DNA of 64,000 bases from a bacterium (lineage in GTDB: Bacteria > SZUA-182 > SZUA-191 > JAJRXT01). The stretch covers positions 37,791-101,790 of the forward strand of contig JAJRUS010000047.1 in assembly GCA_024277675.1 (NCBI GenBank), in the 5' to 3' direction. The translations under genes were made by a program, and so were the position numbers. Position 1 is the stretch's first letter. Each line of letters starts with the position of its first letter. A model generated the notes under the pieces. That model had not been told where the DNA came from, did no database searches, and saw nothing but the letters and a program-made list of their open reading frames with translations. Of the stretch, positions 10,834-51,904 are shown one piece after another.

Positions 10834-10930
10834 GCCTATGAGCCGGATATAATAATACCTTGACTTTAATTTATGCTGTTGCTATGTTAATGCCATTCTG
10901 ATTGTTCCGAATTACTATGGCTTAATAATC

Positions 10931-15993: not shown

Positions 15994-16080
15994 ATCTGCC
16001 AACTGACTCTATCAACCAGACAGTATATCTTGCCTTAGACAGCCGGCTGGTATATACTGCTTATTATTCGGATAATTCTA

Positions 16081-16908
16081 TTGCTTAATGCCCTCAGCAT
16101 CGACCTGGAAGATTATTATCACGCCAGAACCCTGGCCGGAGTGATTAGCGAAGCAAAATGGGATGCGTGTGAAAGTCGGGTAGCTGATAGTGTCCGCCGT
16201 TTGCTGACAATTTTAGCTGAGTATGAGGTATCAGCCACCTTTTTTGTGTTGGCCTGGGTAGCTGAGCGTGAACCGCAATTGATAAAAGAGGTGCAGGCCG
16301 CTGGGCATGAAATAGCCTGCCATGGTTACGGCCATAAACTAATTTATGAGCAACAACCCGATGAGTTCAGGGCTGATATACGGCGGGCCAAACAAATACT
16401 GGAGGATTTGATTAAAGAACCGGTTAAGGGCTATCGGGCGCCGGTCTTCTCCATAACAGAGGATAGCTTGTGGGCATTGGATATCCTGATTGAGGAAGGG
16501 TTTTTATATGATTCCAGCATCTTCCCCATAATTCATGACCGTTATGGAATCCCGAAGGCGGAGCGTTTTCCCCACCGGATTAGCCGCAACAGCGCTGGAG
16601 AAATCTATGAATTTCCGTTGTCTACCATCCGCTGGCTCGGATATAATATTCCGATTGCCGGCGGCGGTTATTTAAGATTTATGCCTGATTGGTTTATAAA
16701 AAAAGGAATTACCCGCTTGAACAAAAATGGTAAACCGGCTATTATTTATCTTCATCCCTGGGAAATAGACCCGCAGCAGCCCCGGCAGGCGGTTGGCGCT
16801 TTATCGTCTATCAGGCAATATTATAACCTGGATAAGATGGAAGCTAAATTAAAAAAACTGTTGACCGATTTCTCCTTTGCTCCGGTAGCCAAGGTATTAG
16901 ACATATGA
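16081..16908 (+). CDS. Polysaccharide deacetylase family protein, PEP-CTERM/XrtA-locus subtype (DUF3473-like)
   Basis: 275 aa. LSIDLEDYYH N-terminus, FFVLAWVAE, and HGYGH motifs typical of the exosortase-locus deacetylase. TTG start. Confidence 0.7.
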   Translation: MLNALSIDLEDYYHARTLAGVISEAKWDACESRVADSVRRLLTILAEYEVSATFFVLAWVAEREPQLIKEVQAAGHEIACHGYGHKLIYEQQPDEFRADIRRAKQILEDLIKEPVKGYRAPVFSITEDSLWALDILIEEGFLYDSSIFPIIHDRYGIPKAERFPHRISRNSAGEIYEFPLSTIRWLGYNIPIAGGGYLRFMPDWFIKKGITRLNKNGKPAIIYLHPWEIDPQQPRQAVGALSSIRQYYNLDKMEAKLKKLLTDFSFAPVAKVLDI

Positions 16909-23752: not shown

Positions 23753-23837
23753 TATTTAAACTAGGCTATTGGCATTATATAGTTTATACTATGTTTTTAT
23801 CAGCTCTATTGAAATAGTCATTGATAATGGGAAGATA

Positions 23838-25250
23838 ATGAGACGTAATTTATTTTTTAGCTATATGTTATTTGGTAGTCTTCTTATCGCAGGTTGTATC
23901 AGCACCCTCAGGTTATATTCCGGTCCAGAATTACCCCGGGATAAAATCGCTAAAGTAATAATAGAATCCCCTTTATTACTATATGCAGTGGACAGGAACC
24001 CCCCATTTTACAATCAGCGGCGAAGTATAGTAGCCTGGGAACTGGAGCTGCTTCCCGGATATCATACAATTACCCTTAAGTATAATTCAAATATCAACGG
24101 CCAATCCCTGTTAACGGAAAAAACTATTCCGGTAAAATTTTTGGCTAAAGCCGGACATACATATCGCGCCATGTCTTCCACTGACTGGAATACAAAGAAT
24201 ACGCAAACTTTTAAGGTCTGGTTTGATGACGAAACGCAGGCAGTTCTTAGCGCAGTTGAGCCTAAACCGAAAGATATTAATTCAGCCTTAATAGAGGCGA
24301 TAAAAAAAGGCGATTTAAATGCCGCCAGAACGCTCATGGAGAAAGGCGCTGATGTAAATAACCGGGATGCGGGTGGTTGGACGCCCTTAATGTATGCGGT
24401 TAGAAATAATCAGAACTATCTCGTACATGTGATGCTGATTAAAGGCGCTGATGTAAACGCAACCACCGAGCTGGGCACGACAGCCTTCATGTTGGCGGCC
24501 GGTACCGGCCAGAAAGATATCTTACAAGCTATGCTGGATAAGGGCGCTGATCTGAATGCAAAAGACAGGGCCGGCTGGACACCCATAATGCTGGCCACCA
24601 GAAACGGTCATGCCGGTATCGTGAAATTTTTGCAGAATAAGGGCGCCGATGTAAATGCAGAAACAGAGACTGGGCTGACCGCCTTTCTCTTGGCGGTAGA
24701 AAAGGGTCGGCTGGAGATTGTAGAAACCCTATTAAATAAAACCGCCGATATTGACCTGGCGCTTGAGGATGGGACAACCCCCTTGATATCTGCGGCCAAA
24801 AGTGGCCATATCGATATTGCCAAGGCCTTGTTAGGTAAGGGCGCCGATGTAAATTTAAAGACTGATGCCGGGGTAACGGCTTTAATGTATGCCGCTAAAG
24901 AGGGCTACACTGACATTGCAGAAGCTATCCTGGCTAAAAATGTCAATATAAATGCAAAAGACAATCACCAGGTAACCGCTTTGATGGAAGCCGCCGCTGG
25001 CGGCCACACTGATATCGTACGGTTACTACTATATAAAGGGGCTGAGGTAAATATCAAAAACAATGACGGTACAACAGCTTTAATGTTGGCAGCAATCGAG
25101 GGTCACACCGCTGTTCTACAGGCACTGCTGGATAAGGGCGCTGATTTAAACCAGCAGGATAACTATGGCCGAACGGCCTTAACCCTGGCGGCCAGGAATC
25201 TCCAAACGGGGGCGGTTATATTGCTTAAAGAGGCTGGAGCAAAAGAATAA
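23838..25250 (+). CDS. Ankyrin-repeat lipoprotein (about 10 ANK repeats)
   Basis: Start moved to the in-frame ATG giving MRRNLFFSYMLFGSLLIAGC (lipobox). Repeated (G)ADVNAKD..G.T(P/A)LM(L/Y)AA...GH motifs. Confidence 0.8.
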   Translation: MRRNLFFSYMLFGSLLIAGCISTLRLYSGPELPRDKIAKVIIESPLLLYAVDRNPPFYNQRRSIVAWELELLPGYHTITLKYNSNINGQSLLTEKTIPVKFLAKAGHTYRAMSSTDWNTKNTQTFKVWFDDETQAVLSAVEPKPKDINSALIEAIKKGDLNAARTLMEKGADVNNRDAGGWTPLMYAVRNNQNYLVHVMLIKGADVNATTELGTTAFMLAAGTGQKDILQAMLDKGADLNAKDRAGWTPIMLATRNGHAGIVKFLQNKGADVNAETETGLTAFLLAVEKGRLEIVETLLNKTADIDLALEDGTTPLISAAKSGHIDIAKALLGKGADVNLKTDAGVTALMYAAKEGYTDIAEAILAKNVNINAKDNHQVTALMEAAAGGHTDIVRLLLYKGAEVNIKNNDGTTALMLAAIEGHTAVLQALLDKGADLNQQDNYGRTALTLAARNLQTGAVILLKEAGAKE

Positions 25251-25402: not shown

Positions 25403-26803
25403 TTATAAGTGATATTTCTTGATCTTGCGGTAGAGGGTTTTATAGTCTATTTTAAGTCGTTGGGCCGCCTTAACCTTATTGCCATGTGCCTCTTCTATGG
25501 CCTGTCGTATGGCCTGTTTCTCTACCTGTTCTATGGCAGCCTGGCTTATTTCCTTTAAAGATGTCCGGTTATTATAATTAGCAGCCGGGCTCATATTAGA
25601 CGGCATAAATTGAGATATGGGCGACTGAAACAAATGATAGGGTTGAATAATATCCGGTGAGAGTAATACTGCCCGGCGAATGACGTTTCTCAATTCCCTG
25701 ACGTTTCCCCGCCATTCCTGTTCCGATAGCCAGTTTATGGCTTCTTCAGAAAAACCGTGAAGCTTCTTGCCCAGTTCAGTTGAGGTTTCATGCAGAAATT
25801 TCTTGGCTAAAAGCAGTATATCCTCTTGCCGCTCACGTAGCGGCGGCAGGTAAATAGTAAATTCATTCAATCTATGATATAGGTCTTCCCGTAGATTTTC
25901 TGCGTTAACTTCTTCATCCAGCATAAGGTTTGAAGCGGCAATAATTCTTACATCCACGGTTATGGGTTTATTACCCCCCAAACGATAAAATTGCCGCTCT
26001 TGAAGTACTCGCAACATTTTTCTCTGGGTGCTCAGTGGAATATTGGCTACTTCATCCAGGAACAGCGTACCATCCTGAGCTAATTCAAAATAACCGGCTT
26101 TACTTTGATTAGCGCCCGTAAAGGCTCCTTTTTCATAGCCGAACAACTCGCTTTCGATAAGCGTATCGGGTATGGCGCCGCAATCAACCGGCACAAAAGG
26201 CTTATCTTTTCGAGAACTTTTCCGGTGGATAAAATGAGCCACCAGTTCTTTGCCGGTACCGGTTTCTCCTTGCAAAATCACGGTAAAGTTGGTTTTAGCC
26301 ACTTGTTCCACTTGATAGCTTATTCTCTGTATCTGGTGACTGGTCCCCATCAGTGAAAACAACGATGATTGGTCTCTTAGTTGTTCCCGTAGAAATTCAA
26401 CCTCCTGCTGCAACATAAAGTGATCCAATACCCGTTTAATGGTATACACAATCTGCTCATTGTCAAAGGGTTTGGTGAGAAAATCAGAAGCGCCCGTCTT
26501 TATGGCCTGAACAGAAGAAGGGATATCGCCATGAGCGGTAAGCATAATCACCGGCAACGAATAATTAATCTCCTTAATCTTTTTTAAAGCTTCCATGCCA
26601 TCCATGGTGGGCATCTTTATATCCAACAGCACTATATCGGGGGGCTGTTTTTTAACTTTGCCGATAGCATCGAGGCCATCTACTGCCTGCTGAACTATAA
26701 ACCCTTCGGCTTTCAGAATATTAGCCAGCAACCAGCGCATATCCTGTTCATCATCTACTATTAAAACAGTAGCCGGACAAAGCTTATCTTTCACTCTATT
26801 CAT
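25403..26803 (-). CDS. Sigma-54-dependent two-component response regulator (NtrC family)
   Basis: 466 aa. Receiver (VLIVDDE...LLDIKMP), AAA+ (GETGTGKE, GAFTGA, ESELFGYEKGAFTGA), C-terminal Fis-type HTH. Confidence 0.9.
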   Translation of the reverse strand: MNRVKDKLCPATVLIVDDEQDMRWLLANILKAEGFIVQQAVDGLDAIGKVKKQPPDIVLLDIKMPTMDGMEALKKIKEINYSLPVIMLTAHGDIPSSVQAIKTGASDFLTKPFDNEQIVYTIKRVLDHFMLQQEVEFLREQLRDQSSLFSLMGTSHQIQRISYQVEQVAKTNFTVILQGETGTGKELVAHFIHRKSSRKDKPFVPVDCGAIPDTLIESELFGYEKGAFTGANQSKAGYFELAQDGTLFLDEVANIPLSTQRKMLRVLQERQFYRLGGNKPITVDVRIIAASNLMLDEEVNAENLREDLYHRLNEFTIYLPPLRERQEDILLLAKKFLHETSTELGKKLHGFSEEAINWLSEQEWRGNVRELRNVIRRAVLLSPDIIQPYHLFQSPISQFMPSNMSPAANYNNRTSLKEISQAAIEQVEKQAIRQAIEEAHGNKVKAAQRLKIDYKTLYRKIKKYHL

Positions 26804-26808
26804 CTCCT

Positions 26809-28962
26809 TTATGCTTTTTCTTGAAAAATGGGGAGCGAAATCTTCACCTTAAGCCCCCCTTGAGCCAGATTAAAAGCGGAAATCTTACCCTGATGTTGTT
26901 CCAGAATTCTTTTTGAAATCGATAATCCCAGCCCTACACCCCTGACCCGGGTGGTAAAAAACGGATCAAATATAGAGGCTAAATACTCTTCGGGAATACC
27001 AGGGCCATTATCAATTATATATAAGTTAAGCAGTTGATTTGTCTGGTCTGATTCTGCCGTTATCCGAATTTCTCCCGCTTGGGTCAGCCCCTCGATAGAG
27101 TTAAGGGTTATGTTCATCAATACTTGCTCTAATTGGTTTCTATCACCCATAATAATCGGCATATCAGGCGGATACTCCCGTTTGACCTTGATCCCTTTTT
27201 TGTTTAATTCCGATTTCAATAACAATAACATCTTTTGTACCAGATCACCCATGTTTATGGGCACAAATTTAGTGTTACTCGACGAAGGTCTGGCAAAGTT
27301 CAACAGGGCATTGATTACCTTACTGGCAGCAGATGCATTGCGATTTATGACTAGAAGGTGTTCGGTGATATTAGCCGGAGGGTTTAGGTTTTGTAAACAG
27401 AATTGAGCCGACCCGGCGATAATAGCCAGCGGATTACCTAAATCATGAGCTAAGCCAACCGCAATCTGACCCACTGCCGACATTTTTTCGGAATCTACCA
27501 GAATTTGTTCTTGCTTTTTCTGAGTGGTAATGTTCTGGGTCAGTTCTAATACTTGAATCACCTCGCCGGTATGATCACAAATCGGAGTGGTGGTAATTTG
27601 ATAATAGTGAACCTGTCCATTCTTGTCAAGCCGCAACTCATGTTGTTCAACCCTGTTATGCTCAAAGGTTTTGACTGCCGGACAATTATCACAGATGCGC
27701 TGAAGCCGGTAACAGGTCTCATAGCAATGTGTATCGGTAATGCTTTTGAGAGAACCCACCCGCTGGGTTACATTTTTATTGGCCCAGAGCAGCTTAAAGT
27801 TTTTGTCTATTACAGATAGCTCCGCCCCGATGGCGCTTATGATGTTGTCCAGTTTTTGTTTTTCCTGCTTGATTTCTAAAGTCTGGGCATCCACTTCCTT
27901 TTCCAGTTTGTCGGCATATAAGGCCCGGTTTTCGGCTTGCATCCGTTCTTTGTTGATTCGAAAGATAAAAAAGTTGGTTATCAATAACCCACTGATTACT
28001 GCCAGAGAAAAGAATAGTATTTGATAGAAACTTTTTCGTACCAACTGGGTGACTTCACTGAAAGGGGCTGATATGACTATCATCCAGGTGTGCGGCCCAA
28101 TCTTGATGGGCGAGTAGGCCACCAATTTGTCCTTTTTGCCGGCAGCCAGGTAGCGGCCGTTACCGGCAATTTTTTCTTTCGTTATTTTCCTTTCCATATC
28201 AAAAGAAATGTGGCAGCCAAAGCATTTATCTTTGACTTTAACTATAGATCGATTGATCATTTCAGGGTGTTCGGGGTGGTGTAGTAAAGCCCCATTTCCA
28301 TCTAATAAAAAGGCGTAGCCGGATTTACCCGATTTAATGTGAGAAATGAATTTTGCGATAATCCTGTTCAACGAAATCGCAAATGCCAGCACCTGGGGTT
28401 CGTCAGTCCCGGCTGATATCGCAGCCGGCAATTTAGTGGCTATTAGAAAGGCTTTGGTATTATAGGCTTTATTGCGGGAAATATTAAACTGCTCGAATTG
28501 GAAAATTGCAGAAATTTTAATTTCTCCGGGTTTAATACCGGATATTTTCCCCCAGAATTGCTTTTCCAAATTTTTTGAATAAGCGTCAGCCAGTTTACTC
28601 AGGGTGCGGTCTTCGACCCCGTTTTTCGTTATGCGCCAGACATCAATAACCGCTGTTCCTTGAATGCTGCTATATAATTTAGTTTTAAAATCCTGCTTCC
28701 AGAGCAGATCATCTATGGCGGCCAGTTGCCTCAAATTCCGCTTAAGTGAAGCCAGGTATTCCTCTATACCCGTGGCTGCCTCTTGGGCCAAAATGAGTTG
28801 TTGCCCATTGAATTGGTTAGCCATTTCCTTTTCGGTGGTATAATATATAAACGCTCCAAAGCCGATGGTAAGACAAATAAATATTATTGAAGCTATCCAC
28901 ACTATTCGTTGAATATTGAACTGCTTTTTAGGGAGATTTTTTTTATTCTCAGTCTTTTCCAT
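26809..28962 (-). CDS. Sensor histidine kinase with periplasmic sensor domain carrying a CXXCH heme-c motif and a Cys-rich PAS domain
   Basis: 717 aa. TM helices flanking a ~270-aa periplasmic region containing KCFGCH. Cytoplasmic PAS with CYETCYRLQRICDNCP. HisKA (LAHDLGNPL). HATPase (DNGPGIP...GVGLGLSISK). Confidence 0.85.
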   Translation of the reverse strand: MEKTENKKNLPKKQFNIQRIVWIASIIFICLTIGFGAFIYYTTEKEMANQFNGQQLILAQEAATGIEEYLASLKRNLRQLAAIDDLLWKQDFKTKLYSSIQGTAVIDVWRITKNGVEDRTLSKLADAYSKNLEKQFWGKISGIKPGEIKISAIFQFEQFNISRNKAYNTKAFLIATKLPAAISAGTDEPQVLAFAISLNRIIAKFISHIKSGKSGYAFLLDGNGALLHHPEHPEMINRSIVKVKDKCFGCHISFDMERKITKEKIAGNGRYLAAGKKDKLVAYSPIKIGPHTWMIVISAPFSEVTQLVRKSFYQILFFSLAVISGLLITNFFIFRINKERMQAENRALYADKLEKEVDAQTLEIKQEKQKLDNIISAIGAELSVIDKNFKLLWANKNVTQRVGSLKSITDTHCYETCYRLQRICDNCPAVKTFEHNRVEQHELRLDKNGQVHYYQITTTPICDHTGEVIQVLELTQNITTQKKQEQILVDSEKMSAVGQIAVGLAHDLGNPLAIIAGSAQFCLQNLNPPANITEHLLVINRNASAASKVINALLNFARPSSSNTKFVPINMGDLVQKMLLLLKSELNKKGIKVKREYPPDMPIIMGDRNQLEQVLMNITLNSIEGLTQAGEIRITAESDQTNQLLNLYIIDNGPGIPEEYLASIFDPFFTTRVRGVGLGLSISKRILEQHQGKISAFNLAQGGLKVKISLPIFQEKA

Positions 28963-29221: not shown

Positions 29222-30022
29222 CTAAGGTACTGATTTGGCACACCTGAAGCCAACATTTTCATCATCGGTAATAGGGGTAAATTTACTACGCATAGTAGTA
29301 AGTGCATCATATTTGGCATCCATAAATGAGCCGCCTCGCAATACGTAACGCTCCTTACCGTAGAACTCATCTTCATGCTTATTACCGGGGTACGGCAGAT
29401 AATTATCGGCGGTCCACTCCCACACATTGCCGGCCATATCATAACAACCGTATGGACTGACCCCCTTAGGGTAACTGCCTACCTTGGTGGTGCCGCGTTT
29501 TCTGGATTTTTCAAAGTTTAATTTCTTCCTGGAGAATTTATTCCCCCAGGGAAACAATCTGCCGTCGGCGCCGCGGGCGGCCTTTTCCCATTCAGCTTCA
29601 GTAGGCAAGCGTTTACCCACCCATTCACAATAAGCCACCGCATTTTCCCAATTAACATACACCACCGGGTGTTTGCCCTTACCCCTGGGCATATCCCCGC
29701 CGGCATCCTCCCAGCTAAGCGGAATCGCCGCCCCGGTAGCCGCTATAAACTTTTTATACTCGTCATTAGTTACTTCGTATTTATCAATATAAACGGCATC
29801 CACATTAACCTTATGTGCCGGGGTAGCGCTGTCATGGTACTTAACCATTCCCCCCAAAGTGCCGACTATTTTTTCCAGCCGGGCCTCATCTATACCCATA
29901 GTAAATTCACCGGCCGGCACCAATACCATTCCAGTTGGAACATCCTCCGCAGCCACGGATTTAATATAAAAAACCAACAAACATATCACTAAAACAACAA
30001 GTTTTTTCTTACTCATAAACAC
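29222..30022 (-). CDS. Secreted formylglycine-generating enzyme (FGE/SUMF1) family protein
   Basis: 266 aa. Signal peptide. VNWENAVAYCEWVGKRLPTEAEWEKAARG...GNVWEWT...GFRCA motifs. Confidence 0.85.
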   Translation of the reverse strand: MFMSKKKLVVLVICLLVFYIKSVAAEDVPTGMVLVPAGEFTMGIDEARLEKIVGTLGGMVKYHDSATPAHKVNVDAVYIDKYEVTNDEYKKFIAATGAAIPLSWEDAGGDMPRGKGKHPVVYVNWENAVAYCEWVGKRLPTEAEWEKAARGADGRLFPWGNKFSRKKLNFEKSRKRGTTKVGSYPKGVSPYGCYDMAGNVWEWTADNYLPYPGNKHEDEFYGKERYVLRGGSFMDAKYDALTTMRSKFTPITDDENVGFRCAKSVP

Positions 30023-30053
30023 CTCCGTTCAGAATATTATAACAAACCGGACA

Positions 30054-30068
30054 GGGGTCATTGACCCC
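30054..30068. promoter_or_regulatory. Perfect palindrome GGGGTCATTGACCCC about 30 bp upstream of the FGE gene start
   Basis: Identical 15-mer at 19832..19846. Degenerate copy at 3082..3096. Overlaps a putative -35/-10 region (TTGTTATAAT downstream). Confidence 0.4.
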
Positions 30069-30096
30069 AGGTTGGATTAACGATGTGGAACCGTAA

Positions 30097-31098
30097 TTAA
30101 CGGGCACAACGAAATCCCACATCATCATAAATACCATCAGCCTTCAGCTTTTTACGATAAATGGTAGTGGCCATAAAGGGTTTTGACTTAAATGATCCTC
30201 CCCGGGCAACCCGCAGGTTTTGGTCCGCTGCTTCAACACTTAGGGCAGAGCCCGGATATGGTTTATACTTGTCGGCAGTCCATTCCCACACATTACCGGC
30301 CATATCATAGCAATCAAATTTACTGATTCCTTTCTCATACCTGCCGGTAATAGTGGGGGCGTTGAATCTTTCTCCTTTTGTATTAGTCCAGGCCCCTCGA
30401 AATTTTCGTCCCCAGGGAAAATAGAAGCTCTTTTTCCCGCCGCTGGCGGCTATTTCCCATTCCGCCTCAGTAGGCAGTCGCTTTTTTGCCCACTTGCAAT
30501 AGGCGGCTGCATCACTCCAGCTTACATTAACTACGGGATAGTCATCCTGATTCCTGCGGTAAGCGCCTCCGCGCCAGTGCCGTGGAGCCGGATGATGGGC
30601 AGCCTTTATGAATTTCTTGTAGCGGCTGTTGGTAACTTCATATTTGTCAATACGGAAAGCCTTCAATTTCACCGTATGTTTAGGAACGGATGCCAGGTAA
30701 TCCTTCTCGGAACCGCCTATGTTTTTGAGAATCCATTTTATTCTTTTTTGATCAATTCCCATGCTGTATTCGTCGGCAGGAATTGATACCATCCGGCTTC
30801 GGTCCTGATCGGCTCTAACCAGCGACAGGTTCACCTCGGCAACGGCGCCGGCAAATATCTCTATATTAGCCGTCTCCTGTAAATAGCCGCTGGTTTCCGC
30901 AATAATTACATGCTTGCCGACGTCTATATTTATTTTCAGCTTTTTGGTAGTAGCTAAATGAGCCGCCTGACCATCAATGAAAATATAGGCTTCCGGAATA
31001 CACTTAATTATCAACTTACCCACCTCGGCCCTGGCGATTGAATTACCAATCAGTAAAAACATCCCGCCTATTAACCAGCCTGCCAAAAAATTTTTCAT
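30097..31098 (-). CDS. Secreted PEGA-like domain + FGE/SUMF1 domain protein
   Basis: 333 aa. Signal peptide. N-terminal beta-rich PEGA-like segment (GKLIIKCIPEAYIFIDG...VGKHVIIAE). C-terminal VNVSWSDAAAYCKWAKKRLPTEAEWE...GNVWEWT...GFRCA. Confidence 0.8.
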   Translation of the reverse strand: MKNFLAGWLIGGMFLLIGNSIARAEVGKLIIKCIPEAYIFIDGQAAHLATTKKLKINIDVGKHVIIAETSGYLQETANIEIFAGAVAEVNLSLVRADQDRSRMVSIPADEYSMGIDQKRIKWILKNIGGSEKDYLASVPKHTVKLKAFRIDKYEVTNSRYKKFIKAAHHPAPRHWRGGAYRRNQDDYPVVNVSWSDAAAYCKWAKKRLPTEAEWEIAASGGKKSFYFPWGRKFRGAWTNTKGERFNAPTITGRYEKGISKFDCYDMAGNVWEWTADKYKPYPGSALSVEAADQNLRVARGGSFKSKPFMATTIYRKKLKADGIYDDVGFRCAR

Positions 31099-31144
31099 TA
31101 TAATTACCTCTTAGATTCAAAGAACTGTACCGGAAAATTAAATC

Positions 31145-32014
31145 TTATTTTACGGTTACACAACTAATGCCAACTTCCTTGGGACTGTTTCCGGTATCAT
31201 CAAAATCGCGATCTATGCAACGCAAGTAAAACTTAACGTTTAAAACCGACCCGCCTCGCACTACTTTATAAAAACCGGTCTCAGGCCCCGTCGGGTTTTT
31301 ATTCGGGCTATACTTATAATATCCGGGATCATACCAATCAGCTACCCATTCAGCCACATTACCGGCCATGTCCAAGGCCCCATATGCTGAAAAACCTTGA
31401 GGCTTGCTGCCCACGGGTTGATACGTCCGGTTTCCATCCCATTGCCGGCCGAAGGGAATATTTATCGACTCAGGCGGTTGGTTGCCCCAGGGATAAAGTC
31501 TTTCGTCAATCCCCCGAGCGGCTTTCTCCCATTCCGCTTCAGTGGCTAAGCGCTTACCCGCCCACTTGCAATAGCTGTCTGCATCCTGCCAACTCACATC
31601 AACCACCGGATAATTATCCAATCCAGCCGGAAAGCCAGCCTTGCTCCAGATATCAAATTCCGGATCGCTGGTATGCGCCGGTATTCGATGATTAGTAGCC
31701 TGCACAAACTTAAAATATTGAGCATTTGTAATCTCATGTTTGTCAATGTAAAAGGCATCCAGATAAACCTTATGTGCCGGTTTTTCGTCATTATAATAAG
31801 GTTTATCGGTGCCCATTACAAACTCTCCCGCCGGCACCAGCATCATCAGGGATCCATCTTTTTTATTAAGCCGGGTAGCCGGCAAACCAGCGGCCACAGC
31901 TAAACCGGGAAAGAAAAAACAAAATGTCAATATTCCCGGTAAACATCGCCTGCCAATAATTACGGCGCTTTTGGTACGACCTTTTTTTGTCTCTGGCCCG
32001 GTATCAATCGGCAT
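31145..32014 (-). CDS. Exported FGE/SUMF1 family protein
   Basis: 289 aa. Hydrophobic N-terminus. VDVSWQDADSYCKWAGKRLATEAEWEKAARG...GNVAEWV... Confidence 0.8.
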   Translation of the reverse strand: MPIDTGPETKKGRTKSAVIIGRRCLPGILTFCFFFPGLAVAAGLPATRLNKKDGSLMMLVPAGEFVMGTDKPYYNDEKPAHKVYLDAFYIDKHEITNAQYFKFVQATNHRIPAHTSDPEFDIWSKAGFPAGLDNYPVVDVSWQDADSYCKWAGKRLATEAEWEKAARGIDERLYPWGNQPPESINIPFGRQWDGNRTYQPVGSKPQGFSAYGALDMAGNVAEWVADWYDPGYYKYSPNKNPTGPETGFYKVVRGGSVLNVKFYLRCIDRDFDDTGNSPKEVGISCVTVK

Positions 32015-32078: not shown

Positions 32079-32489
32079 CTAAGAATTTTTTACCGCCTTC
32101 ATATTATTGCTCTTGGCCGGGGGAAATAAGGCCTGTTTTACGGTGGTAACGAGGTTTTCAATTACAAACGGCTTAGCCACAAATTCATAGTTACCAATTT
32201 CCTGTAGCCTGCTATATAGAACATCATTTCTATAAGGGCCGATAACTATTACCGGCGTGTTTGGCTGGTGATTCCTTATACATTTCAATATGTTATTAGT
32301 AGATAAGTTGGTCAGCGGCGTATCCAGCAATACCAAATCAAGTCCTTTTTTAGAAACAGCCTCAAGCGTATCGGCTAAAGAATCACTGGTTATGATATGG
32401 CAATTCTGGGTCTGGAATACTTTTTTAAGCAGCCAACACATATCTGCGTCTGAACCCACCACGAGTATATTTTTAGCGTCCTTAGGCAT
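32079..32489 (-). CDS. Single-domain response regulator (CheY-like receiver)
   Basis: Receiver fold (ILVVGSDADM...DLVLLDTPL...KPF). Start placed at MPKDAKN (ATG 32489..32487) downstream of GGGAGA and of a sigma-54 promoter. The ORF track's longer ORF starts at 32516. Confidence 0.7.
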   Translation of the reverse strand: MPKDAKNILVVGSDADMCWLLKKVFQTQNCHIITSDSLADTLEAVSKKGLDLVLLDTPLTNLSTNNILKCIRNHQPNTPVIVIGPYRNDVLYSRLQEIGNYEFVAKPFVIENLVTTVKQALFPPAKSNNMKAVKNS

Positions 32490-32536
32490 AAATTTTCCAT
32501 CTCCCGAAATTAACATATAAAATCTTACCTATCCAT

Positions 32537-32554
32537 TTGCAACCCTTATGCCAT
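32537..32554 (-). promoter_or_regulatory. Sigma-54 (-24/-12) promoter TGGCAT-N5-TTGCA
   Basis: Minus strand reads A-TGGCAT-AAGGG-TTGCA-A with consensus GG/GC spacing. About 38 nt upstream of the receiver gene ATG. Confidence 0.6.
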
Positions 32555-32693
32555 ATACAAAGGCAGAAAACAGCCCTCATAAAATAAGTTAACTGGTTGA
32601 AAAGAATATACTATAAAAACAAACTAAGAAAATGAATTAGATTATGGTTAGTTAGAATATGGCATGGATGCCATATGGGAGGGCAATGTTGGC

Positions 32694-33689
32694 CTAAAAC
32701 CGTGCCAACAGTTTCCAGTATTCATCCAGCATCTGGAAGAAGCGGGGTTTGCTTTGCAGGGTATGCATTAGTCGGCGGAAATTAGCGCTACCAGGCAAGC
32801 TTTGAGTGTACCAGATAAGATGCTTTCTTATATGTAATAAGGCTGGTTCAAAGCCGTAATACCGACCAAATAACTCAAAATGACGGATTATAACCGATTT
32901 TCTCTCCGCCAAACCGGGCGCCGGGGGGCAATGGCCGGAAGCTAAATATCGGCCTGTTTGATCAAATATCCAGGGATTTCCCCTGGCCGCCCGGCCTATC
33001 ATAACGCCGTCGCAGCCGGTTTGGCTTAACATGCGGCCGGCATCCAGCGGCGTTTTAACATCTCCATTACCGATTACCGTACAGGATACCGTTTCTTTTA
33101 GTTTTCTTATAAGTTGCCAATCGGCCGCCCCGGTAAATCCTTGAGTCCTGGTGCGTCCATGTATGCTAATGGCGTCTACCCCGCAACCCTCAGCAATACG
33201 GGCAATTTCCAGCGCATTAATTTGGGCGGTATCCCAACCGGCTCGAATCTTAACCGTCAACGGAACATTAACCGCCCGGCGAACCTTTTTTAGAATTCGC
33301 TCGACCAGGCGCGGCTCTCTCATAAGTGCAGAACCCGCCCCGCTCCTTACCACCTTCTTCACCGGACAGCCCATATTAATATCTATTAAATCCGCCCCGT
33401 TTTCGGCGGCGATTATAGCCCCTGCTGCCAATATGTCGGGATCGGCCCCAAACAATTGCACCGCCAGAGGTTTTTCTGCCGGATGACTCATTAAATAACG
33501 GTTATTATGCTTAAAGTGATGTACCAAACCGTGGCTGCTCACCATCTCACTAAACACCAGCCCACAGCCATATTCTTTGGCCAGCAGTCTGAAAGGCAGA
33601 TTAGTGATGCCCGCCATAGGGGCCAATATAAGCGGATTTTTTAGTTTCAGCTTACCAATTTGCATAAGGCTTACAGGTATTTCCCCCAA
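32694..33689 (-). CDS. dusB: tRNA-dihydrouridine synthase
   Basis: 331 aa. LAPMAGITNLPFRLL, DINMGCPVKKV, IGNGDV motifs. Confidence 0.9.
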   Translation of the reverse strand: MGEIPVSLMQIGKLKLKNPLILAPMAGITNLPFRLLAKEYGCGLVFSEMVSSHGLVHHFKHNNRYLMSHPAEKPLAVQLFGADPDILAAGAIIAAENGADLIDINMGCPVKKVVRSGAGSALMREPRLVERILKKVRRAVNVPLTVKIRAGWDTAQINALEIARIAEGCGVDAISIHGRTRTQGFTGAADWQLIRKLKETVSCTVIGNGDVKTPLDAGRMLSQTGCDGVMIGRAARGNPWIFDQTGRYLASGHCPPAPGLAERKSVIIRHFELFGRYYGFEPALLHIRKHLIWYTQSLPGSANFRRLMHTLQSKPRFFQMLDEYWKLLARF

Positions 33690-38969: not shown

Positions 38970-40418
38970 CTAAAATTCCAGTTGCTTTTCCGGCTTATGC
39001 CGTTCAGCTTGTTTAAATGTTTTATCGGTTAAATATGCCGGCGGTCGTTCGATTTTATTGTTCTGTAACAAATCACCTATGGTTATTATTTGGATTTTGG
39101 GAAATTGCTTATCCCAAATGGGGGGTTTATAATATCCTTGTGAGACGGCATAACTTTTCATCGGTTTGGTAGGTTCAGCCAAAGTGATAAACACCCCCAT
39201 TTGAGCATGGTTACTATCCACCACCGAACAGAAATCCCTGATCTGGGCTACTCCCACCTGTCGGCCACCTTTAACCTGCACCAATATTGATTTAATCTTG
39301 TTTGTTTTATCATCTTGAAAGTAGATTACCCCATCTATACCTCTGTCGGCTCCCTTCTTTTTACCTCCCATTGGCCTTGCGCCAATTAAACTCAAAGCCC
39401 ACCATTCAAACTGGTGTTTGTTGGCTTGCGCCAGGGCTTCGGCTCCGGCTAAATCCACCGGCTCACCGATAACCCTATATGGCAAATCACCATATTTATC
39501 CTTTAACCTGTTTTTTATCAAAGCGATAGCCAGATGAGTAATGTCTATACCGATCCACTGCCGGTTCAGTTCCTGAGCTGCGTCTATGGCAGTGCCACAA
39601 CCGCAGAACGGGTCTAACACTATATCTCCCTCGTTGCTGCTGGCCAGTATAATTCGCCGCAGCAATTCCAGCGGTTTTTGGGTGGGATAACCCAGTCGTT
39701 CTTTGGCCGAGGGGGCTATTATTGGAACTTCCCAAACATCATCAGGATGTTTACCCAACGGATGGAGACTTTGTTCTCCAAAATCTATGCCGTTTCTTAT
39801 GTTGCCTATATAATGTTTGAATCTTTCCTTAGTTGTATCTGCATATGGAACTCGTACATCATCAGCGTTAAACTTCCAGTTTACGCCCTTTGTATAATAG
39901 AAAATAATGTCATGTCTTCTGCCATATCTTTTAGGGGAAATACCAGCACCTTTATAGTACCAAACAATTTCATTCTGAAATCCTCCTCCTCCAAATATAA
40001 TATCCAATATAATCTTCAAATAATGGCTGGCGTTAGGGTCGCAGTGCAAGTATAATGCACCATTTTCTTTAAGAACCCTATGCAACTCCACCAAGCGGAT
40101 AGCCATCATAGTTAAATAAGTCATGGTGTCGCTCTCGCCCATAAACCCGCGAAAACCTCGCATTAACTCTACCAACTTGGCGGGGGCATATTCTGTCATC
40201 AGATGGTAAGCTTTCTCAGAAGTTTCTCCCCAATGCCAGCTATCGCTAAAAGCTTCCACCTGAGCTGCCGATTCAGCGCCGCCGGTATCTTTAAATAATA
40301 CATTATAATTTCGCTTGCTGTTAAACGGAGGGTCTAAATAAATTAAGTCCACACTCTCATCACTTATATATTCGCCTAACACATCCAGATTATCCCCATA
40401 GTAAAGACAATTAGTCAT
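38970..40418 (-). CDS. Beta-class N6A/N4C DNA methyltransferase fused to a C-terminal Mrr-like (PD-(D/E)xK) nuclease domain
   Basis: 482 aa. Motif IV DLIYLDPPFNS near the N-terminus, then motif I VLDPFCGCGTA (beta order). C-terminal DRGIDGVIYF...LVQVKGG resembles the Mrr catalytic core. Markedly AT-rich. Confidence 0.75.
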   Translation of the reverse strand: MTNCLYYGDNLDVLGEYISDESVDLIYLDPPFNSKRNYNVLFKDTGGAESAAQVEAFSDSWHWGETSEKAYHLMTEYAPAKLVELMRGFRGFMGESDTMTYLTMMAIRLVELHRVLKENGALYLHCDPNASHYLKIILDIIFGGGGFQNEIVWYYKGAGISPKRYGRRHDIIFYYTKGVNWKFNADDVRVPYADTTKERFKHYIGNIRNGIDFGEQSLHPLGKHPDDVWEVPIIAPSAKERLGYPTQKPLELLRRIILASSNEGDIVLDPFCGCGTAIDAAQELNRQWIGIDITHLAIALIKNRLKDKYGDLPYRVIGEPVDLAGAEALAQANKHQFEWWALSLIGARPMGGKKKGADRGIDGVIYFQDDKTNKIKSILVQVKGGRQVGVAQIRDFCSVVDSNHAQMGVFITLAEPTKPMKSYAVSQGYYKPPIWDKQFPKIQIITIGDLLQNNKIERPPAYLTDKTFKQAERHKPEKQLEF

Positions 40419-40448
40419 TTTTCGCTACCCCTTGTCAAACACATTTAT

Positions 40449-51139: not shown

Positions 51140-51904
51140 ATGCATAATTCTAAAAAATCTAAAGCCCTGTGGATAGGATTTATTATAATTTGTCTGGTGG
51201 GTATATATTTTAAAGCGGCCCACGCCAAAGCGCCCCAGGATATGGTACTCATCCCGGCCGGTGAATTTACCATGGGCAGTGAGGATGGTGATAAGGATGA
51301 ACTTCCACAGCGCCAGGTATACCTGGATGCCTTCTATATAGCTAAATATGAGGTTACCAATGCCCAATACCGTAAGTTCGTTAAAGCTACCGGTTATAGA
51401 GAGCCATATGGCTGGGATGATAAAAATTTTAATCAGCCCAATCAACCGGTAGTCGGTGTTTCATGGGAGGATGCAGCGGCATATTGCAAATGGGCCGGCC
51501 GGCGCCTACCCACTGAAGCCGAATGGGAAAAGGCGGCCCGCGGCGACGGGGGCTGGATATTTCCCTGGGGCCAGGATTGGAATAAGCAAAATGCCAACAG
51601 CTCATCATTGGACAAGCATAAAACTGCGCCGGTGGGCAGTTATCCTCAAGGAGTAAGTTCCTATGGGGTATATGATATGGCCGGCAATGTATGGGAATGG
51701 TGTGCTGATTGGTATGTAGCCGATTATTATCTCCTGGGTCCCGGGCGGAATCCCCCCGGTCCTTCAACCAGTGATTCGAAAGTAATCCGTGGCGGCGGCT
51801 GGTTTGATTCCCCTACCCAGTTGCGCACCACCAACCGCTATTACAGTCATCCGATGGTAAGGTACAACGGCATTGGTTTCCGCTGTGCCAAGGATTATAA
51901 ATAA
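51140..51904 (+). CDS. Exported FGE/SUMF1 family protein (fourth paralog)
   Basis: 254 aa. Signal peptide. VGVSWEDAAAYCKWAGRRLPTEAEWEKAARG...GNVWEWCADW...GFRCA. Starts 4 nt after the proS stop. Confidence 0.85.
   Translation: MHNSKKSKALWIGFIIICLVGIYFKAAHAKAPQDMVLIPAGEFTMGSEDGDKDELPQRQVYLDAFYIAKYEVTNAQYRKFVKATGYREPYGWDDKNFNQPNQPVVGVSWEDAAAYCKWAGRRLPTEAEWEKAARGDGGWIFPWGQDWNKQNANSSSLDKHKTAPVGSYPQGVSSYGVYDMAGNVWEWCADWYVADYYLLGPGRNPPGPSTSDSKVIRGGGWFDSPTQLRTTNRYYSHPMVRYNGIGFRCAKDYK

What the first reader, a model, noticed from the sequence alone, without database searches (positions are those of the whole stretch)
29222..32014. Tandem array of three secreted FGE/SUMF1-domain paralogs (one with an N-terminal PEGA-like domain), plus a fourth copy at 51140..51904, with no sulfatase in the neighbourhood
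All four proteins carry signal peptides and the full FGE-sulfatase signature (W-x-D-A-x-A-Y-C-x-W, RLPTEAEWE, GNVWEW, GFRC). No sulfatase substrate gene is present in 64 kb. The array is flanked by a sigma-54-dependent single-domain response regulator and a heme-motif sensor kinase/NtrC pair, suggesting conditional regulation. Exported FGE-domain proteins without sulfatase partners (as in PvdO and EgtB relatives) have poorly understood functions. A four-fold expansion is notable.
Basis: partly seen in the sequence, partly recalled or inferred. Interest (0 to 1): 0.6.

Follow-up and report, generated by a model that had tools for sequence, protein, structure and literature searches.

The report
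Sigma-54-switched trio of exported FGE-like proteins
Three neighbouring genes, plus a fourth elsewhere in the window, encode exported proteins with the fold of the sulfatase-activating enzyme FGE but without its two catalytic cysteines; the three form a conserved gene module switched on by a sigma-54 promoter under an adjacent haem-motif sensor kinase and activator, and what they do in the periplasm is still unknown.

Summary
Four ORFs are full-length PF03781 (FGE-sulfatase) proteins with Sec-type signal peptides, one has a PEGA-like N-domain, and no sulfatase is found among the window's ORFs of at least 130 aa.

They are not FGEs. In all four, and in 24 FGE-like proteins from related loci, Cys336 is substituted and Cys341 falls in a 3-residue deletion. 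None reaches an NCBIfam cutoff for EgtB, SenA, OvoA, PvdO or GldK.

The array is not a recent expansion. It consists of three old orthogroups, a (about 283 aa), b (PEGA, about 333 aa) and c (about 264 aa), which are 37-45% identical to each other. The order a-b-c is kept in 6 loci. The b-c pair is present in all 8.

New here is the regulation. An exact TATGGC-N6-GCCATA palindrome lies 104 nt upstream of a -24/-12 sigma-54 promoter, in front of a receiver-domain gene and the three FGE-like genes. This arrangement recurs in 7 of 8 related loci. A DNA-pattern-only metagenome scan retrieved homologues of the window's NtrC-type activator directly beside the palindrome in at least 21 of 41 hits. The partner kinase has an invariant periplasmic CxxCH motif.

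The molecular function is inferred only. I favour a non-catalytic periplasmic binding or scaffold assembly; a novel enzyme is the main rival. The fourth copy sits between proS and cobS and is separate from the module.

The parts
32658..32675 (.). Upstream activator sequence: exact palindrome TATGGCATGGATGCCATA (TATGGC-N6-GCCATA), directly after the dus stop codon and 104 nt upstream of the -24 element.
   Evidence: It is the only match in the window even allowing 3 mismatches. Exact TATGGC-N6-GCCATA palindromes sit beside the module in L001, L085, L086 (two copies), L087 and L090, and 1-mismatch copies in L084. They lie 104-162 nt upstream of the -24/-12 site in L001, L085, L086 and L087, but next to the first FGE-like gene in L090 and L084. 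A pattern-only metagenome scan retrieved homologues of the window activator directly upstream of it.
32538..32553 (-). Sigma-54 (-24/-12) promoter-like element TGGCATAAGGGTTGCA, upstream of the receiver gene.
   Evidence: Best match to TGGCAC-N5-TTGCW in the window. It is not significant on its own (2.67 expected at <=1 mismatch). However, sites with <=1 mismatch occupy the same position in L001, L084, L085, L086, L087 and L090. That is 7 of the 9 such sites in 173 kb. The background in 1.22 Mb of other FGE-family loci is 0.010 per kb per strand.
32079..32516 (-). First gene of the operon: a receiver-domain-only response regulator. The likely start is the ATG at 32489. The phospho-acceptor Asp and the conserved Lys are kept, but the window copy has Gly at the CheY D12 and T87 positions.
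   Evidence: PF00072 E 2.6e-14. Alignment with orthologues, CheY and the activator's receiver domain. Conserved in front of the FGE-like genes in L001, L084 and L090.
31145..32014 (-). FGE-like protein, type a (P3, 289 aa), exported. Lacks the catalytic Cys pair and has divergent motifs (RLATEAEWE, GNVAEW, GISC).
   Evidence: PF03781 E 3.3e-57. Alignment to human FGE. Orthogroup a is present in 6 loci.
30097..31098 (-). FGE-like protein, type b (P2, 333 aa): signal peptide, PEGA-like beta-sandwich (about residues 26-92), then an FGE fold. Lacks the catalytic Cys pair.
   Evidence: PF03781 E 5.1e-53. PEGA: 16.4 bits here, 32.5 and 22.2 bits in orthologues. AlphaFold pLDDT 94.1, pTM 0.88. Foldseek top hits are CalU17, ToxD, FGE, pFGE and EgtB. 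18-member orthogroup alignment.
29222..30016 (-). FGE-like protein, type c (P1, 264 aa from the ATG at 30016), exported. Lacks the catalytic Cys pair. Shares a roughly 15-residue insertion after the first conserved block with type b.
   Evidence: PF03781 E 6.5e-59. Alignments. Type c follows type b in all 8 related loci.
26809..28962 (-). Sensor histidine kinase with a periplasmic Cache-like domain carrying an invariant CxxCH (C247, C250, H251), a Cys-rich PAS domain, HisKA and HATPase_c.
   Evidence: Pfam hits. CxxCH and C413/C424/C427 are invariant in 4 orthologues. It sits downstream of the FGE-like genes in L084, L090 and L086, and probably in L085.
25403..26803 (-). NtrC-family sigma-54 activator (receiver, AAA+ with GAFTGA, HTH_8). 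Proposed binder of the palindrome.
   Evidence: Pfam Sigma54_activat E 8e-69, HTH_8 E 1.4e-14. Homologues 44-52% identical over at least 450 residues lie immediately upstream of the same palindrome and sigma-54 promoter in at least 21 of 41 metagenome loci found by DNA pattern alone.
51140..51904 (+). Fourth FGE-like protein (P4, 254 aa), exported, lacking the catalytic Cys pair. It starts 3 nt after proS and lies upstream of cobS. It is not part of the sigma-54 module.
   Evidence: PF03781 E 5.8e-67. Alignment to human FGE in the PDB search. proS-FGE-cobS-unknown synteny is conserved in L091. Forms a separate clade with L091_P4.

Best explanation
Shown by the sequence evidence:
- The three tandem genes are ancient paralogues (types a, b, c) of the FGE fold. 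All are exported and all lack the two Cu(I)-binding catalytic cysteines, so they are not sulfatase-maturating enzymes.
- Together with a receiver-only gene they sit behind a sigma-54 promoter that has an upstream TATGGC-N6-GCCATA palindrome.
- This module, especially the b-c pair, and its cis elements recur in related uncultivated bacteria.

Strongly inferred:
- The adjacent NtrC-type activator binds the palindrome and switches the operon on when phosphorylated by the adjacent kinase.
- The kinase's periplasmic Cache-like domain carries a conserved c-type haem motif. By analogy with haem-c Cache sensors, the signal would be a periplasmic redox or gas cue such as NO.
- The receiver-only protein would act as a phosphate sink or branch.

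Inferred, low confidence:
- In the periplasm the PEGA-FGE protein (b) and its partner c, with a in most genomes, act together as a non-catalytic ligand- or protein-binding assembly. The former active-site loops would be the specificity surface. Precedents for Cys-less FGE-fold proteins in such roles are pFGE/SUMF2, PorK/GldK, Tsi3 and bacterial OCTIN.

P4 is a separate, apparently constitutively placed paralogue between proS and cobS.
For: Not FGE:
- Cys336 is replaced by D/S/N and Cys341 lies in a 3-residue deletion in all four window proteins and in all 24 FGE-like proteins from related loci.
- None of the 117 nearest database homologues that carry the RGGS motif has the C-x4-C pair.
- All scores are below the equivalog cutoffs for EgtB, SenA, OvoA, PvdO and GldK.
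- There is no sulfatase in the window.

Fold:
- AlphaFold pLDDT 94. Foldseek hits to FGE, pFGE, CalU17, ToxD and EgtB at E 1e-17 to 1e-21.

Conserved module:
- a-b-c order in the window, L001, L084, L085, L090 and L089. L089 is only 43-47% identical and has different flanking genes.
- b-c pair in L086 and L087.
- Short intergenic gaps of 46 and 74 nt; b and c overlap in L089.

Regulation:
- Sigma-54 sites in 7 of 8 loci, against a background of 0.010 per kb per strand.
- Palindrome in 7 of 8 loci.
- A pattern-only scan recovers homologues of the activator next to the palindrome.
- The activator has Sigma54_activat, GAFTGA and HTH_8.
- The kinase's CxxCH is invariant.
- Signalling-linked haem-c Cache domains behave as NO sensors (PMC12889525).

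Precedents for non-catalytic roles:
- Tsi3 works by protein-protein binding (bioRxiv 10.1101/2021.05.21.445229).
Against: - No tool here tests protein-protein interaction, so the 'assembly' is inferred only from conserved co-occurrence and gene order.
- Each type keeps its own conserved residues in the loop that replaces the FGE active site (a: DRDFD; b: PFMxTTxYR; c: RSKFTP..DDEN). That would equally fit three enzymes with new chemistry.
- L089 has the trio but neither the palindrome nor a sigma-54 site.
- In L084 and L090 extra palindromes lie just upstream of the first FGE-like gene, not upstream of a recognisable promoter.
- The window's sigma-54 match is not significant on its own.
- The kinase's sensor does not match the described sCache_heme family PF11845. 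Haem binding and the nature of the signal are therefore unproven.
- The window's receiver copy has Gly at two conserved positions.
- The c gene is split in L001.
Confidence: 0.45

Rival explanations
1. The three proteins are periplasmic enzymes with a new catalytic solution on the FGE fold. An example would be oxidoreductases acting on a thiol, a small molecule or an envelope component, as proposed for PvdO. They would be induced by the redox or NO-type signal that the haem-motif kinase senses.
For: - Most characterised members of the fold are O2-dependent enzymes (FGE, EgtB, OvoA, SenA, OvsA; PDB hits).
- The top structural neighbours CalU17 and ToxD are biosynthetic-pathway proteins.
- Each orthogroup has type-specific invariant residues in the ex-active-site loop.
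- Induction by a dedicated sensor would fit a stress or detoxification enzyme set.
Against: - The trio has no conserved Cys pair and no DinB domain, which supplies the metal site in EgtB-type enzymes.
- There is no cofactor-biosynthesis or electron-transfer gene in the conserved module.
- Three paralogues kept in fixed order look more like subunits than like isoenzymes.
Confidence: 0.3
2. They are NirV-like accessory proteins of nitrogen-oxide or copper metabolism. NirV is an FGE-fold protein of unknown role encoded next to nirK. Under this reading the trio would be induced by NO.
For: - NirV is listed among FGE-family members implicated in nitrite reduction (bioRxiv 10.1101/2021.05.21.445229).
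- Signalling-linked haem-c Cache sensors behave as NO sensors (PMC12889525).
- The kinase here has an invariant CxxCH.
Against: - There is no nirK, nor or nos gene in the window or in the related loci.
- The relationship to NirV was not tested, because no NirV sequence was available.
- The kinase domain is not the PF11845 type.
Confidence: 0.08
3. They are an array of orphan immunity proteins of the Tsi3 type. These are FGE-like periplasmic proteins that neutralise a type VI secretion effector and are often encoded in tandem arrays.
For: Tsi3 homologues are Cys-less FGE-domain proteins, often adjacent to one another (bioRxiv 10.1101/2021.05.21.445229). The proteins here are also exported.
Against: - No vgrG, tse3 or other type VI secretion gene is found in the window or in any of the 8 related loci.
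- The three genes are distinct orthogroups in a fixed order, not variable copies.
- They are under a dedicated sigma-54/activator switch.
- They have no hits in PADLOC, although that library covers anti-phage defence rather than T6SS immunity.
Confidence: 0.05
4. They are genuine formylglycine-generating enzymes that mature sulfatases encoded elsewhere in the genome.
For: Strong sequence similarity to human and bacterial FGE (E about 1e-41, 35-43% identity). The rest of the genome is unseen.
Against: - Both copper-binding catalytic cysteines are missing in every copy and every orthologue.
- The FGE-specific loop HYANIWQGEFPV is deleted.
- There is no sulfatase in 64 kb.
Confidence: 0.02
5. They are variable proteins of a diversity-generating retroelement, like Treponema TvpA, which has the same fold.
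For: TvpA (2y3c) is among the PDB sequence hits.
Against: - No reverse transcriptase is found in any scanned ORF.
- No template repeat matches the 3' ends of the genes. The only cross-hits are the conserved DMAGNVWEW block among the paralogues themselves.
- The C-terminal regions are conserved within each orthogroup.
Confidence: 0.01

Closest known systems
Formylglycine-generating enzyme (SUMF1; human, S. coelicolor and T. curvata FGE)
   Same: Same fold and domain (PF03781), 35-43% identity. Conserved RLPTEAEWE, GNxWEW and RGGS blocks. The Cys equivalents of the C218-C365 disulfide are mostly kept. Also located in an exported or secretory compartment.
   Different: - Both catalytic Cu(I)-ligand cysteines are absent: Cys336 is substituted and Cys341 is deleted.
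- The HYANIWQGEFPV loop and the roughly 35-residue insertion of human FGE are missing.
- There is no sulfatase nearby.
- The genes occur as a three-gene module under sigma-54 control.
pFGE / SUMF2 (PDB 1y4j)
   Same: A Cys-less paralogue of FGE with the same fold and no FGE activity. From my own knowledge, it associates with SUMF1 and with sulfatases. This is a precedent for catalytically inactive FGE-fold paralogues that work by binding.
   Different: It is eukaryotic, resides in the ER, and works alongside an active FGE. Here no active FGE is seen, and the partners are other Cys-less paralogues.
Bacterial OCTIN and other N-terminally extended Cys-less FGE-domain proteins (PMC5915273)
   Same: Signal peptide, FGE domain without the catalytic cysteines, N-terminal extension. 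That paper explicitly lists PEGA-FGE architectures. [quoted passage not shown]
   Different: Membership of the OCTIN clade was not tested. OCTIN assembly relies on clade-specific cysteines. Here only type b has a consistently conserved extra Cys (the GC-Y-D-M position). No operon or regulatory context has been described for OCTIN.
Tsi3 family of type VI secretion immunity proteins (bioRxiv 10.1101/2021.05.21.445229)
   Same: Cys-less FGE-like proteins that act by protein-protein binding, not catalysis, and are frequently encoded as adjacent homologues.
   Different: There are no type VI secretion genes or effector here. The gene order is fixed among distinct orthogroups, and expression is sigma-54/activator-controlled.
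PvdO, PorK/GldK and GldJ
   Same: Periplasmic or envelope FGE-fold proteins without the FGE cysteines. PorK/GldK is a structural ring component and PvdO is a putative oxidoreductase.
   Different: - NCBIfam scores are far below the cutoffs (PvdO 52-99 vs 500; GldK 85-134 vs 350).
- There is no lipoprotein signal.
- There is no pyoverdine or type IX secretion gene context.
sCache_heme (DUF3365/Tll0287, PF11845) NO-sensing receptors (PMC12889525), as a comparison for the kinase's sensor
   Same: An extracytoplasmic Cache-type sensor carrying a conserved CxxCH, fused to a signalling module.
   Different: The window kinase matches dCache_1 and other Cache profiles, not PF11845. The sensor region is about 265 residues, which is double-Cache size. 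Haem binding is untested.

Membership tests
FGE-sulfatase domain superfamily (Pfam PF03781) | Full-length match to the domain profile above the gathering score | tested here: met
   All four score 181-227 bits against a cutoff of 23.3 and cover profile positions 3-5 to 254-255 of 255.
FGE-sulfatase domain superfamily (Pfam PF03781) | FGE fold in three dimensions | tested here: met
   AlphaFold model of P2: pLDDT 94.1. Foldseek against the PDB: FGE, pFGE, CalU17, ToxD and EgtB at E 1e-17 to 1e-21, probability 1.00. Only P2 was modelled.
Bona fide formylglycine-generating enzyme (SUMF1 type) | Two catalytic, Cu(I)-binding cysteines (human Cys336 and Cys341, motif C-x4-C after RGGS) | tested here: not met
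   Cys336 is replaced by D/S/N/D, and Cys341 lies in a 3-residue deletion in P1-P4. The same holds in all 24 FGE-like proteins from related loci and in 117 of 117 nearest homologues that carry the RGGS motif.
Bona fide formylglycine-generating enzyme (SUMF1 type) | Sulfatase substrates (PF00884, C/S-x-P-x-R) in the genome | tested here: inconclusive
   None is present among the window's 55 ORFs of at least 130 aa, two nested antisense ORFs aside. The rest of the genome is not available.
Bona fide formylglycine-generating enzyme (SUMF1 type) | Formylglycine formation on CxPxR peptides; copper binding | not testable with these tools
   Needs biochemistry.
EgtB / OvoA / SenA sulfoxide and selenoxide synthases | N-terminal DinB-type domain plus FGE-like domain; score above the NCBIfam equivalog cutoff | tested here: not met
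   No DinB hit in Pfam. EgtB scores 98-133 vs 360, SenA 95-130 vs 420, OvoA 27-63 vs 400. Only the C-terminal part of each profile is matched.
PvdO (dihydropyoverdine dehydrogenase) | Score above the NF051459 cutoff; pyoverdine gene context | tested here: not met
   52-99 bits vs 500. No pvd genes are found in the window.
PorK/GldK and GldJ (type IX secretion / gliding lipoproteins) | Score above the TIGR03525/TIGR03524 cutoffs; lipoprotein signal | tested here: not met
   GldK 85-134 vs 350; GldJ 38-50 vs 458. The N-termini end in AxA-type cleavage sites with no lipobox Cys. This was judged by eye.
Tsi3 type VI secretion immunity family | Encoded next to vgrG and a tse3-like effector; membership of the Tsi3 clade | tested here: not met
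   No such neighbours are present in the window or the 8 related loci. Clade membership was not tested, because no Tsi3 sequence was to hand.
DGR variable protein (TvpA type) | Nearby reverse transcriptase, and a template repeat matching the 3' variable region | tested here: not met
   No RT domain is found in the scanned ORFs. blastn of the four 3' ends against the window finds only the paralogues themselves.
PEGA domain (PF08308), N-terminus of P2 | Match above the gathering score | tested here: inconclusive
   Window P2: E 0.0086, 16.4 bits against a 20.8 cutoff. Orthologues P0002 (32.5 bits) and P0019 (22.2 bits) pass; P0014 gives no hit. The model shows a beta-sandwich at residues 26-92.
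Sigma-54-dependent, activator-controlled promoter | -24 GG / -12 GC element with canonical spacing, an upstream activator site, and a cognate AAA+ activator with GAFTGA | tested here: met
   - The sequence is TGGCAT-N5-TTGCA at 32538-32553.
- The position is conserved in 7 of 8 loci.
- The palindrome lies 104 nt upstream.
- The activator has Sigma54_activat, GAFTGA and HTH_8.
- Homologues of the activator lie beside the same palindrome in metagenomes.
- Whether the genome carries rpoN, and whether transcription actually occurs, is not testable here.
sCache_heme (PF11845) haem-c sensor domain, kinase 26809-28962 | Match to PF11845; conserved CxxCH | tested here: not met
   No PF11845 hit at E<=0.01. 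The best hits are dCache_1 and other Cache profiles, all below their cutoffs. CxxCH is nevertheless invariant in 4 orthologues.

The most novel reading that the evidence does not exclude
The b-c pair, with a in most genomes, could be a previously unrecognised inducible periplasmic system built only from FGE-fold proteins. It would be either a hetero-oligomeric envelope assembly or enzymes with a further, cysteine-independent catalytic solution on this fold. It would be produced in response to a periplasmic redox or NO signal read by a new haem-c double-Cache sensor kinase. That would give the very large 'Cys-less FGE-like' branch of PF03781 its first defined signal-to-output circuit.
Probability: 0.2. 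Interest if true: 0.75.

Novelty: new variant of a known kind. Interest (0 to 1): 0.45.

Why it matters
Cys-less, exported FGE-fold proteins are very abundant. One search returned more than 7,500 homologues, spanning Nitrospirota, Acidobacteriota, Poribacteria, Chloroflexota and other phyla. Almost none has a known role, and databases label them 'formylglycine-generating enzyme' or 'nonheme iron enzyme', which this analysis shows is wrong for this branch.

Here a small clade of them is tied to a complete, readable circuit: sensor kinase, activator, defined DNA site, sigma-54 promoter, and three exported proteins. That makes expression conditions and interaction partners experimentally approachable by heterologous reconstruction, even though the organisms are uncultivated.

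The palindrome/activator pairing and the haem-motif Cache-like kinase are useful by-products for people who study sigma-54 regulons and extracytoplasmic sensors.

Tried and rejected
- **Exact-sequence look-ups.** Look-ups of the window proteins for genomic context returned nothing.
- **Genome-contig scan.** The single scan with the type-b alignment saturated on generic FGE motifs. The best hit was 41% identical and the source genome was not retrieved. Those 80 loci served only as a background set.
- **Taxonomy from ProRS.** This could not name the lineage. The nearest named hits, at about 62-66% identity, are Deltaproteobacteria/Desulfobacterota-type MAGs.
- **Sigma-70 promoter and terminator scan of the array.** Results were at chance level. 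A hairpin plus T-run after P1 folds no better than shuffled sequence (z = 0.11), so I make no claim about where the transcript ends.
- **PADLOC.** No hits for the FGE-like proteins or the receiver.
- **DGR hypothesis.** Rejected.
- **Radical SAM/SPASM protein at 9486-10637.** I checked whether it is an anaerobic sulfatase-maturating enzyme. Its best NCBIfam hits are other maturases, all far below cutoff.
- **Metagenome scan with the cis-element pattern.** I hoped it would reveal other outputs of the same regulator and so hint at function. It found no further FGE loci. Most hits drive a small HTH_8 protein plus a hybrid kinase, and two low-GC hits (L114, L125) look like chance.
- **L086_a.** I first counted this ORF as a type-a FGE. 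It is a 2-oxoacid:ferredoxin oxidoreductase beta subunit, so L086 and L087 have only the b-c pair.
- **Literature searches.** Searches linking the FGE domain with sigma-54, or with NirV, gave essentially nothing.

Full report
**1. What is there**

The minus strand between 25.4 and 33.7 kb carries, in transcription order:
- dus (32694-33689)
- a receiver-only response regulator (32079-32516)
- three ORFs of 289, 333 and 266 aa (31145-32014, 30097-31098, 29222-30022)
- a 717-aa histidine kinase (26809-28962)
- a 466-aa NtrC-type activator (25403-26803)

A fourth ORF, 254 aa at 51140-51904(+), begins 3 nt after proS.

All four ORFs of interest match Pfam PF03781 (FGE-sulfatase) end to end, E 5e-53 to 6e-67.

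The 266-aa ORF more likely starts at the ATG at 30016, behind a GGAGG. That gives 264 aa, the length of database protein P0050 from the same 107-kb contig.

Each protein starts with a basic / hydrophobic / AxA-type signal peptide and has no lipobox. The same is true of the orthologues. This was judged by eye.

The N-terminal roughly 70 residues of the 333-aa protein score 16.4 bits on the PEGA profile, below the cutoff of 20.8. Two orthologues pass at 32.5 and 22.2 bits. AlphaFold models the region as a confident beta-sandwich in front of an FGE fold (pLDDT 94.1, pTM 0.88).

Pfam or NCBIfam scans covered the window's 55 ORFs of at least 130 aa, except two antisense ORFs nested inside scanned genes. 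They found no sulfatase. The one radical SAM/SPASM protein is not an anaerobic sulfatase maturase.

- P3 reads RLATEAEWE, GNVAEW and GISC.
- P1 reads W-E-N-A.
- The 'sigma-54-dependent response regulator' is only a receiver domain.

**2. They are not formylglycine-generating enzymes**

The best solved relatives are human and bacterial FGEs, E about 1e-41. I aligned the four proteins with the human FGE core. The Cys numbering of that core reproduces the known C218, C235, C336, C341, C346 and C365.

- Cys336 aligns with D, S, N and D in the four proteins.
- Cys341 falls in a 3-residue deletion in all four.
- The same holds for all 24 FGE-like proteins collected from related loci.
- None of the 117 nearest database homologues that carry the RGGS motif has a C-x4-C pair.
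- The FGE loop HYANIWQGEFPV is deleted as well.

NCBIfam scores for EgtB, SenA, OvoA, PvdO, GldK and GldJ are 3- to 15-fold below the equivalog cutoffs. There is no DinB domain. Foldseek confirms the fold but gives no specific assignment: CalU17, ToxD, FGE, pFGE and EgtB all score alike.

**3. The 'array' is a conserved module of three old paralogues**

The four proteins are 37-49% identical to each other, about as distant as each is from human FGE at 35-43%.

A search with the PEGA protein found about 20 full-length orthologues at 43-73% identity among 5.8 billion proteins, all from metagenomes or MAGs. Their contigs show the same arrangement:

| Locus | Arrangement |
|---|---|
| L084 | dus - REC - a - b - c - kinase - activator; a 48-aa ORF + PqqD + radical SAM + UbiA is inserted after REC |
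| L090 | dus - REC - a - b - c - kinase - activator |
| L001 | dus - REC - a - b - c, with c split into two ORFs |
| L085 | dus - a - b - c, followed by a 510-aa ORF, probably the kinase |
| L089 | a - b - c with unrelated flanks, 43-47% identity |
| L086 | b - c behind a 2-oxoacid oxidoreductase gene |
| L087 (Candidatus Schekmanbacteria) | b - c behind a 2-oxoacid oxidoreductase gene |

A neighbour-joining tree separates three orthogroups:
- a, about 283 aa
- b, PEGA-containing, about 333 aa
- c, about 264 aa

The proS-linked copy forms a fourth clade. Types b and c share a roughly 15-residue insertion. Each type has its own conserved sequence in the loop that replaces the FGE active site.

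The fourth copy keeps its own synteny, proS-FGE-cobS-unknown, in a relative whose ProRS is 68% identical.

So this is not a recent four-fold expansion. The b-c pair is the conserved core, present in 8 of 8 loci. Type a accompanies it in 6.

Multiple Cys-less FGE-like genes per genome are not unusual in these lineages. The Schekmanbacteria MAG has at least seven.

**4. Regulation, the main new result**

*The promoter.* Upstream of the receiver gene lies TGGCATAAGGGTTGCA (32538-32553, minus strand). It differs by one base from the sigma-54 consensus TGGCAC-N5-TTGCW. Taken alone it is not significant: 2.67 such matches are expected in the window.

However, sites with at most one mismatch occupy the same position in L001, L084, L085 and L090 (in front of REC) and in L086 and L087 (in front of b). 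That accounts for 7 of the 9 such sites in 173 kb.

In 80 loci (1.22 Mb) of the wider FGE-like family, the density is 0.010 per kb per strand, and only 1 locus has a site within 1.2 kb upstream.

*The palindrome.* Aligning the upstream regions revealed a palindrome. In the window it reads TATGGCATGGATGCCATA at 32658-32675, 104 nt upstream of the -24 element. It is the only match in the window even with 3 mismatches allowed.

Exact TATGGC-N6-GCCATA copies lie 104-162 nt upstream of the promoter in L001, L085, L086 (two copies) and L087. In L090, and with one mismatch in L084, copies lie next to the first FGE-like gene. L089 has neither element.

*Link to the activator.* I scanned the metagenome collection with the DNA pattern alone: palindrome, a 100-130 nt gap, then the -24/-12 element. 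Of the 41 hits:
- At least 21 encode a homologue of the window's activator, 44-52% identical over at least 450 residues, ending about 40-60 bp upstream of the palindrome.
- Several further loci carry partial copies cut by contig ends.
- In the roughly 70% GC contigs examined, the promoter drives a small HTH_8 protein and a GAF-PAS hybrid kinase.

Recovering the protein family from a DNA-only query is strong evidence that this activator family recognises this palindrome. The window's activator has the Sigma54_activat domain, the GAFTGA motif and an HTH_8 domain.

*The kinase.* Its periplasmic Cache-like region contains a CxxCH that is invariant in four orthologues (46-67% identical). A Cys triad in the cytoplasmic PAS domain is also invariant.

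A recent preprint shows that Cache domains carrying covalent haem c (PF11845), when fused to signalling modules, behave as NO sensors (PMC12889525). The domain here does not match PF11845. Haem binding and the nature of the signal therefore remain inferences.

**5. How it most likely works**

*Shown.* There is a conserved operon-like unit: REC-a-b-c, or b-c alone, behind a sigma-54 promoter with an activator site. Its products are exported FGE-fold proteins that cannot perform FGE chemistry.

*Strongly inferred.* The neighbouring kinase phosphorylates the NtrC-type activator. The activator binds the palindrome and opens the sigma-54 promoter. The receiver-only protein competes for phosphoryl groups, acting as feedback or as a branch. 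The window's copy has Gly at the CheY D12 and T87 positions but keeps the acceptor Asp and the conserved Lys.

*Inferred with low confidence.* The three proteins act together in the periplasm as a binding or scaffold assembly. The arguments are:
- Fixed gene order, tight spacing, and an overlap between b and c in one locus.
- Persistence of distinct paralogues rather than interchangeable copies.
- Loss of all known catalytic residues of the fold.
- A PEGA beta-sandwich on one member.
- Precedents among Cys-less FGE-fold proteins that work by binding or assembly: pFGE (PDB 1y4j), PorK/GldK, Tsi3 (bioRxiv 10.1101/2021.05.21.445229), and a bacterial OCTIN that forms high-order periplasmic oligomers. 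The OCTIN paper also lists PEGA-FGE architectures (PMC5915273).

*Main rival.* The proteins could be enzymes with new chemistry. The type-specific conserved residues in the ex-active-site loop are compatible with this, and it cannot be excluded in silico.

*Other readings.* Canonical FGE, DGR variable protein and type VI secretion immunity array are each contradicted by tested features (and the gene contexts). A NirV-like role is untested.

**6. Comparison with what is known, and novelty**

The proteins belong to the PF03781 superfamily by both sequence and fold. They fail the defining test for FGE, and they fail the curated thresholds for EgtB, OvoA, SenA, PvdO, GldK and GldJ.

Cys-less exported FGE-like proteins, including PEGA fusions, are already described as a large uncharacterised group (PMC5915273).

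I could not find the following in the searchable literature:
- the conserved a-b-c / b-c module
- its sigma-54/activator control with a defined operator
- the link to a kinase with a haem motif

I therefore rate this a new variant of a known kind.

The source is an unnamed MAG lineage. Its ProRS is closest, at about 62-66% identity, to Desulfobacterota-type MAGs.

**7. Verdict**

The 'expansion' framing is wrong.

Interest is moderate (0.45). The circuit is clean and testable and touches a very large unannotated protein group. The molecular function remains unknown, and the fold's recruitment for non-FGE roles is already established.

Noticed in passing
window 26809-28962 (-): The histidine kinase has a CxxCH (C247, C250, H251) that is invariant in 4 orthologues. 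It lies inside a roughly 265-residue Cache-like periplasmic region that hits dCache_1 and other Cache profiles but not PF11845, the only described haem-c Cache family. It may be an independent haem-c Cache sensor. A Cys triad (C413, C424, C427) in the cytoplasmic PAS domain is also invariant.
   Followed up: partly
loci L092-L132 (metagenome contigs), e.g. L099 1914-6395: In about 70% GC contigs, a homologue of the window's NtrC-type activator (44-52% identical over at least 450 residues) ends 40-60 bp before a TATGGC-N6-GCCATA palindrome and a sigma-54 promoter. That promoter drives a small HTH_8 (Fis-type) protein and a GAF-PAS-HisKA-HATPase-REC hybrid kinase. This looks like a widespread regulatory cassette that shares the operator found here.
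   Followed up: partly
window 38970-41642 (-): A fusion of an N6/N4 DNA methyltransferase with an Mrr-type restriction endonuclease domain (482 aa) lies next to an HD-domain dGTPase-like protein (PADLOC dGTPase, E 2.7e-57). This is a possible small defence island.
   Followed up: no
window 23769-25250 (+): A 493-aa ankyrin-repeat protein lies convergent with the activator gene and hits the PADLOC candidate family PDC-M72A (E 6.5e-66). An ankyrin-FGE fusion protein exists elsewhere (P0055). The neighbour is not conserved in L084 or L090.
   Followed up: no
window 1133-16908: A large surface-polysaccharide cluster: flippase, Wzy-like polymerase, glycosyltransferases, methyltransferases, a DegT aminotransferase, a PMT_2 protein, a radical SAM/SPASM protein with no equivalog match, a 964-aa GH127/PcRGLX-like protein with an Fn3 domain, and a polysaccharide deacetylase.
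   Followed up: no
window 56416-58479 (-): LarC-type nickel-insertion protein (PF01969, E 5.6e-142) next to a LarB-like AIR-carboxylase-domain protein. These look like genes for the nickel-pincer cofactor.
   Followed up: no
L091 806-2016 (relative GCA_024276125, same contig as its FGE trio): Two proteins with the MamS_MamX domain (PF26390), which is associated with magnetosomes, are encoded about 8-9 kb upstream of proS in the relative. No equivalent was looked for in the window.
   Followed up: no
L084 6465-8866: In one related metagenome contig a 48-aa ORF, a PqqD-like protein, a radical SAM protein and a UbiA prenyltransferase are inserted between the receiver gene and the first FGE-like gene. 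Two extra near-palindromes lie just before the FGE-like gene. In L086 a UbiA gene and futalosine-pathway genes follow the b-c pair.
   Followed up: no
L001 11034-11819: The type-c FGE-like gene of the relative GCA_024276125 is called as two ORFs (103 and 138 aa). This is either a frameshifted pseudogene or an assembly error.
   Followed up: no
window 52863-54475 (+): A 240-aa ORF with no family match follows cobS. An ORF of matching size and position follows cobS in the relative L091, but homology was not checked. It is followed in the window by a 261-aa protein with a weak anti-sigma-factor-like N-terminus.
   Followed up: no
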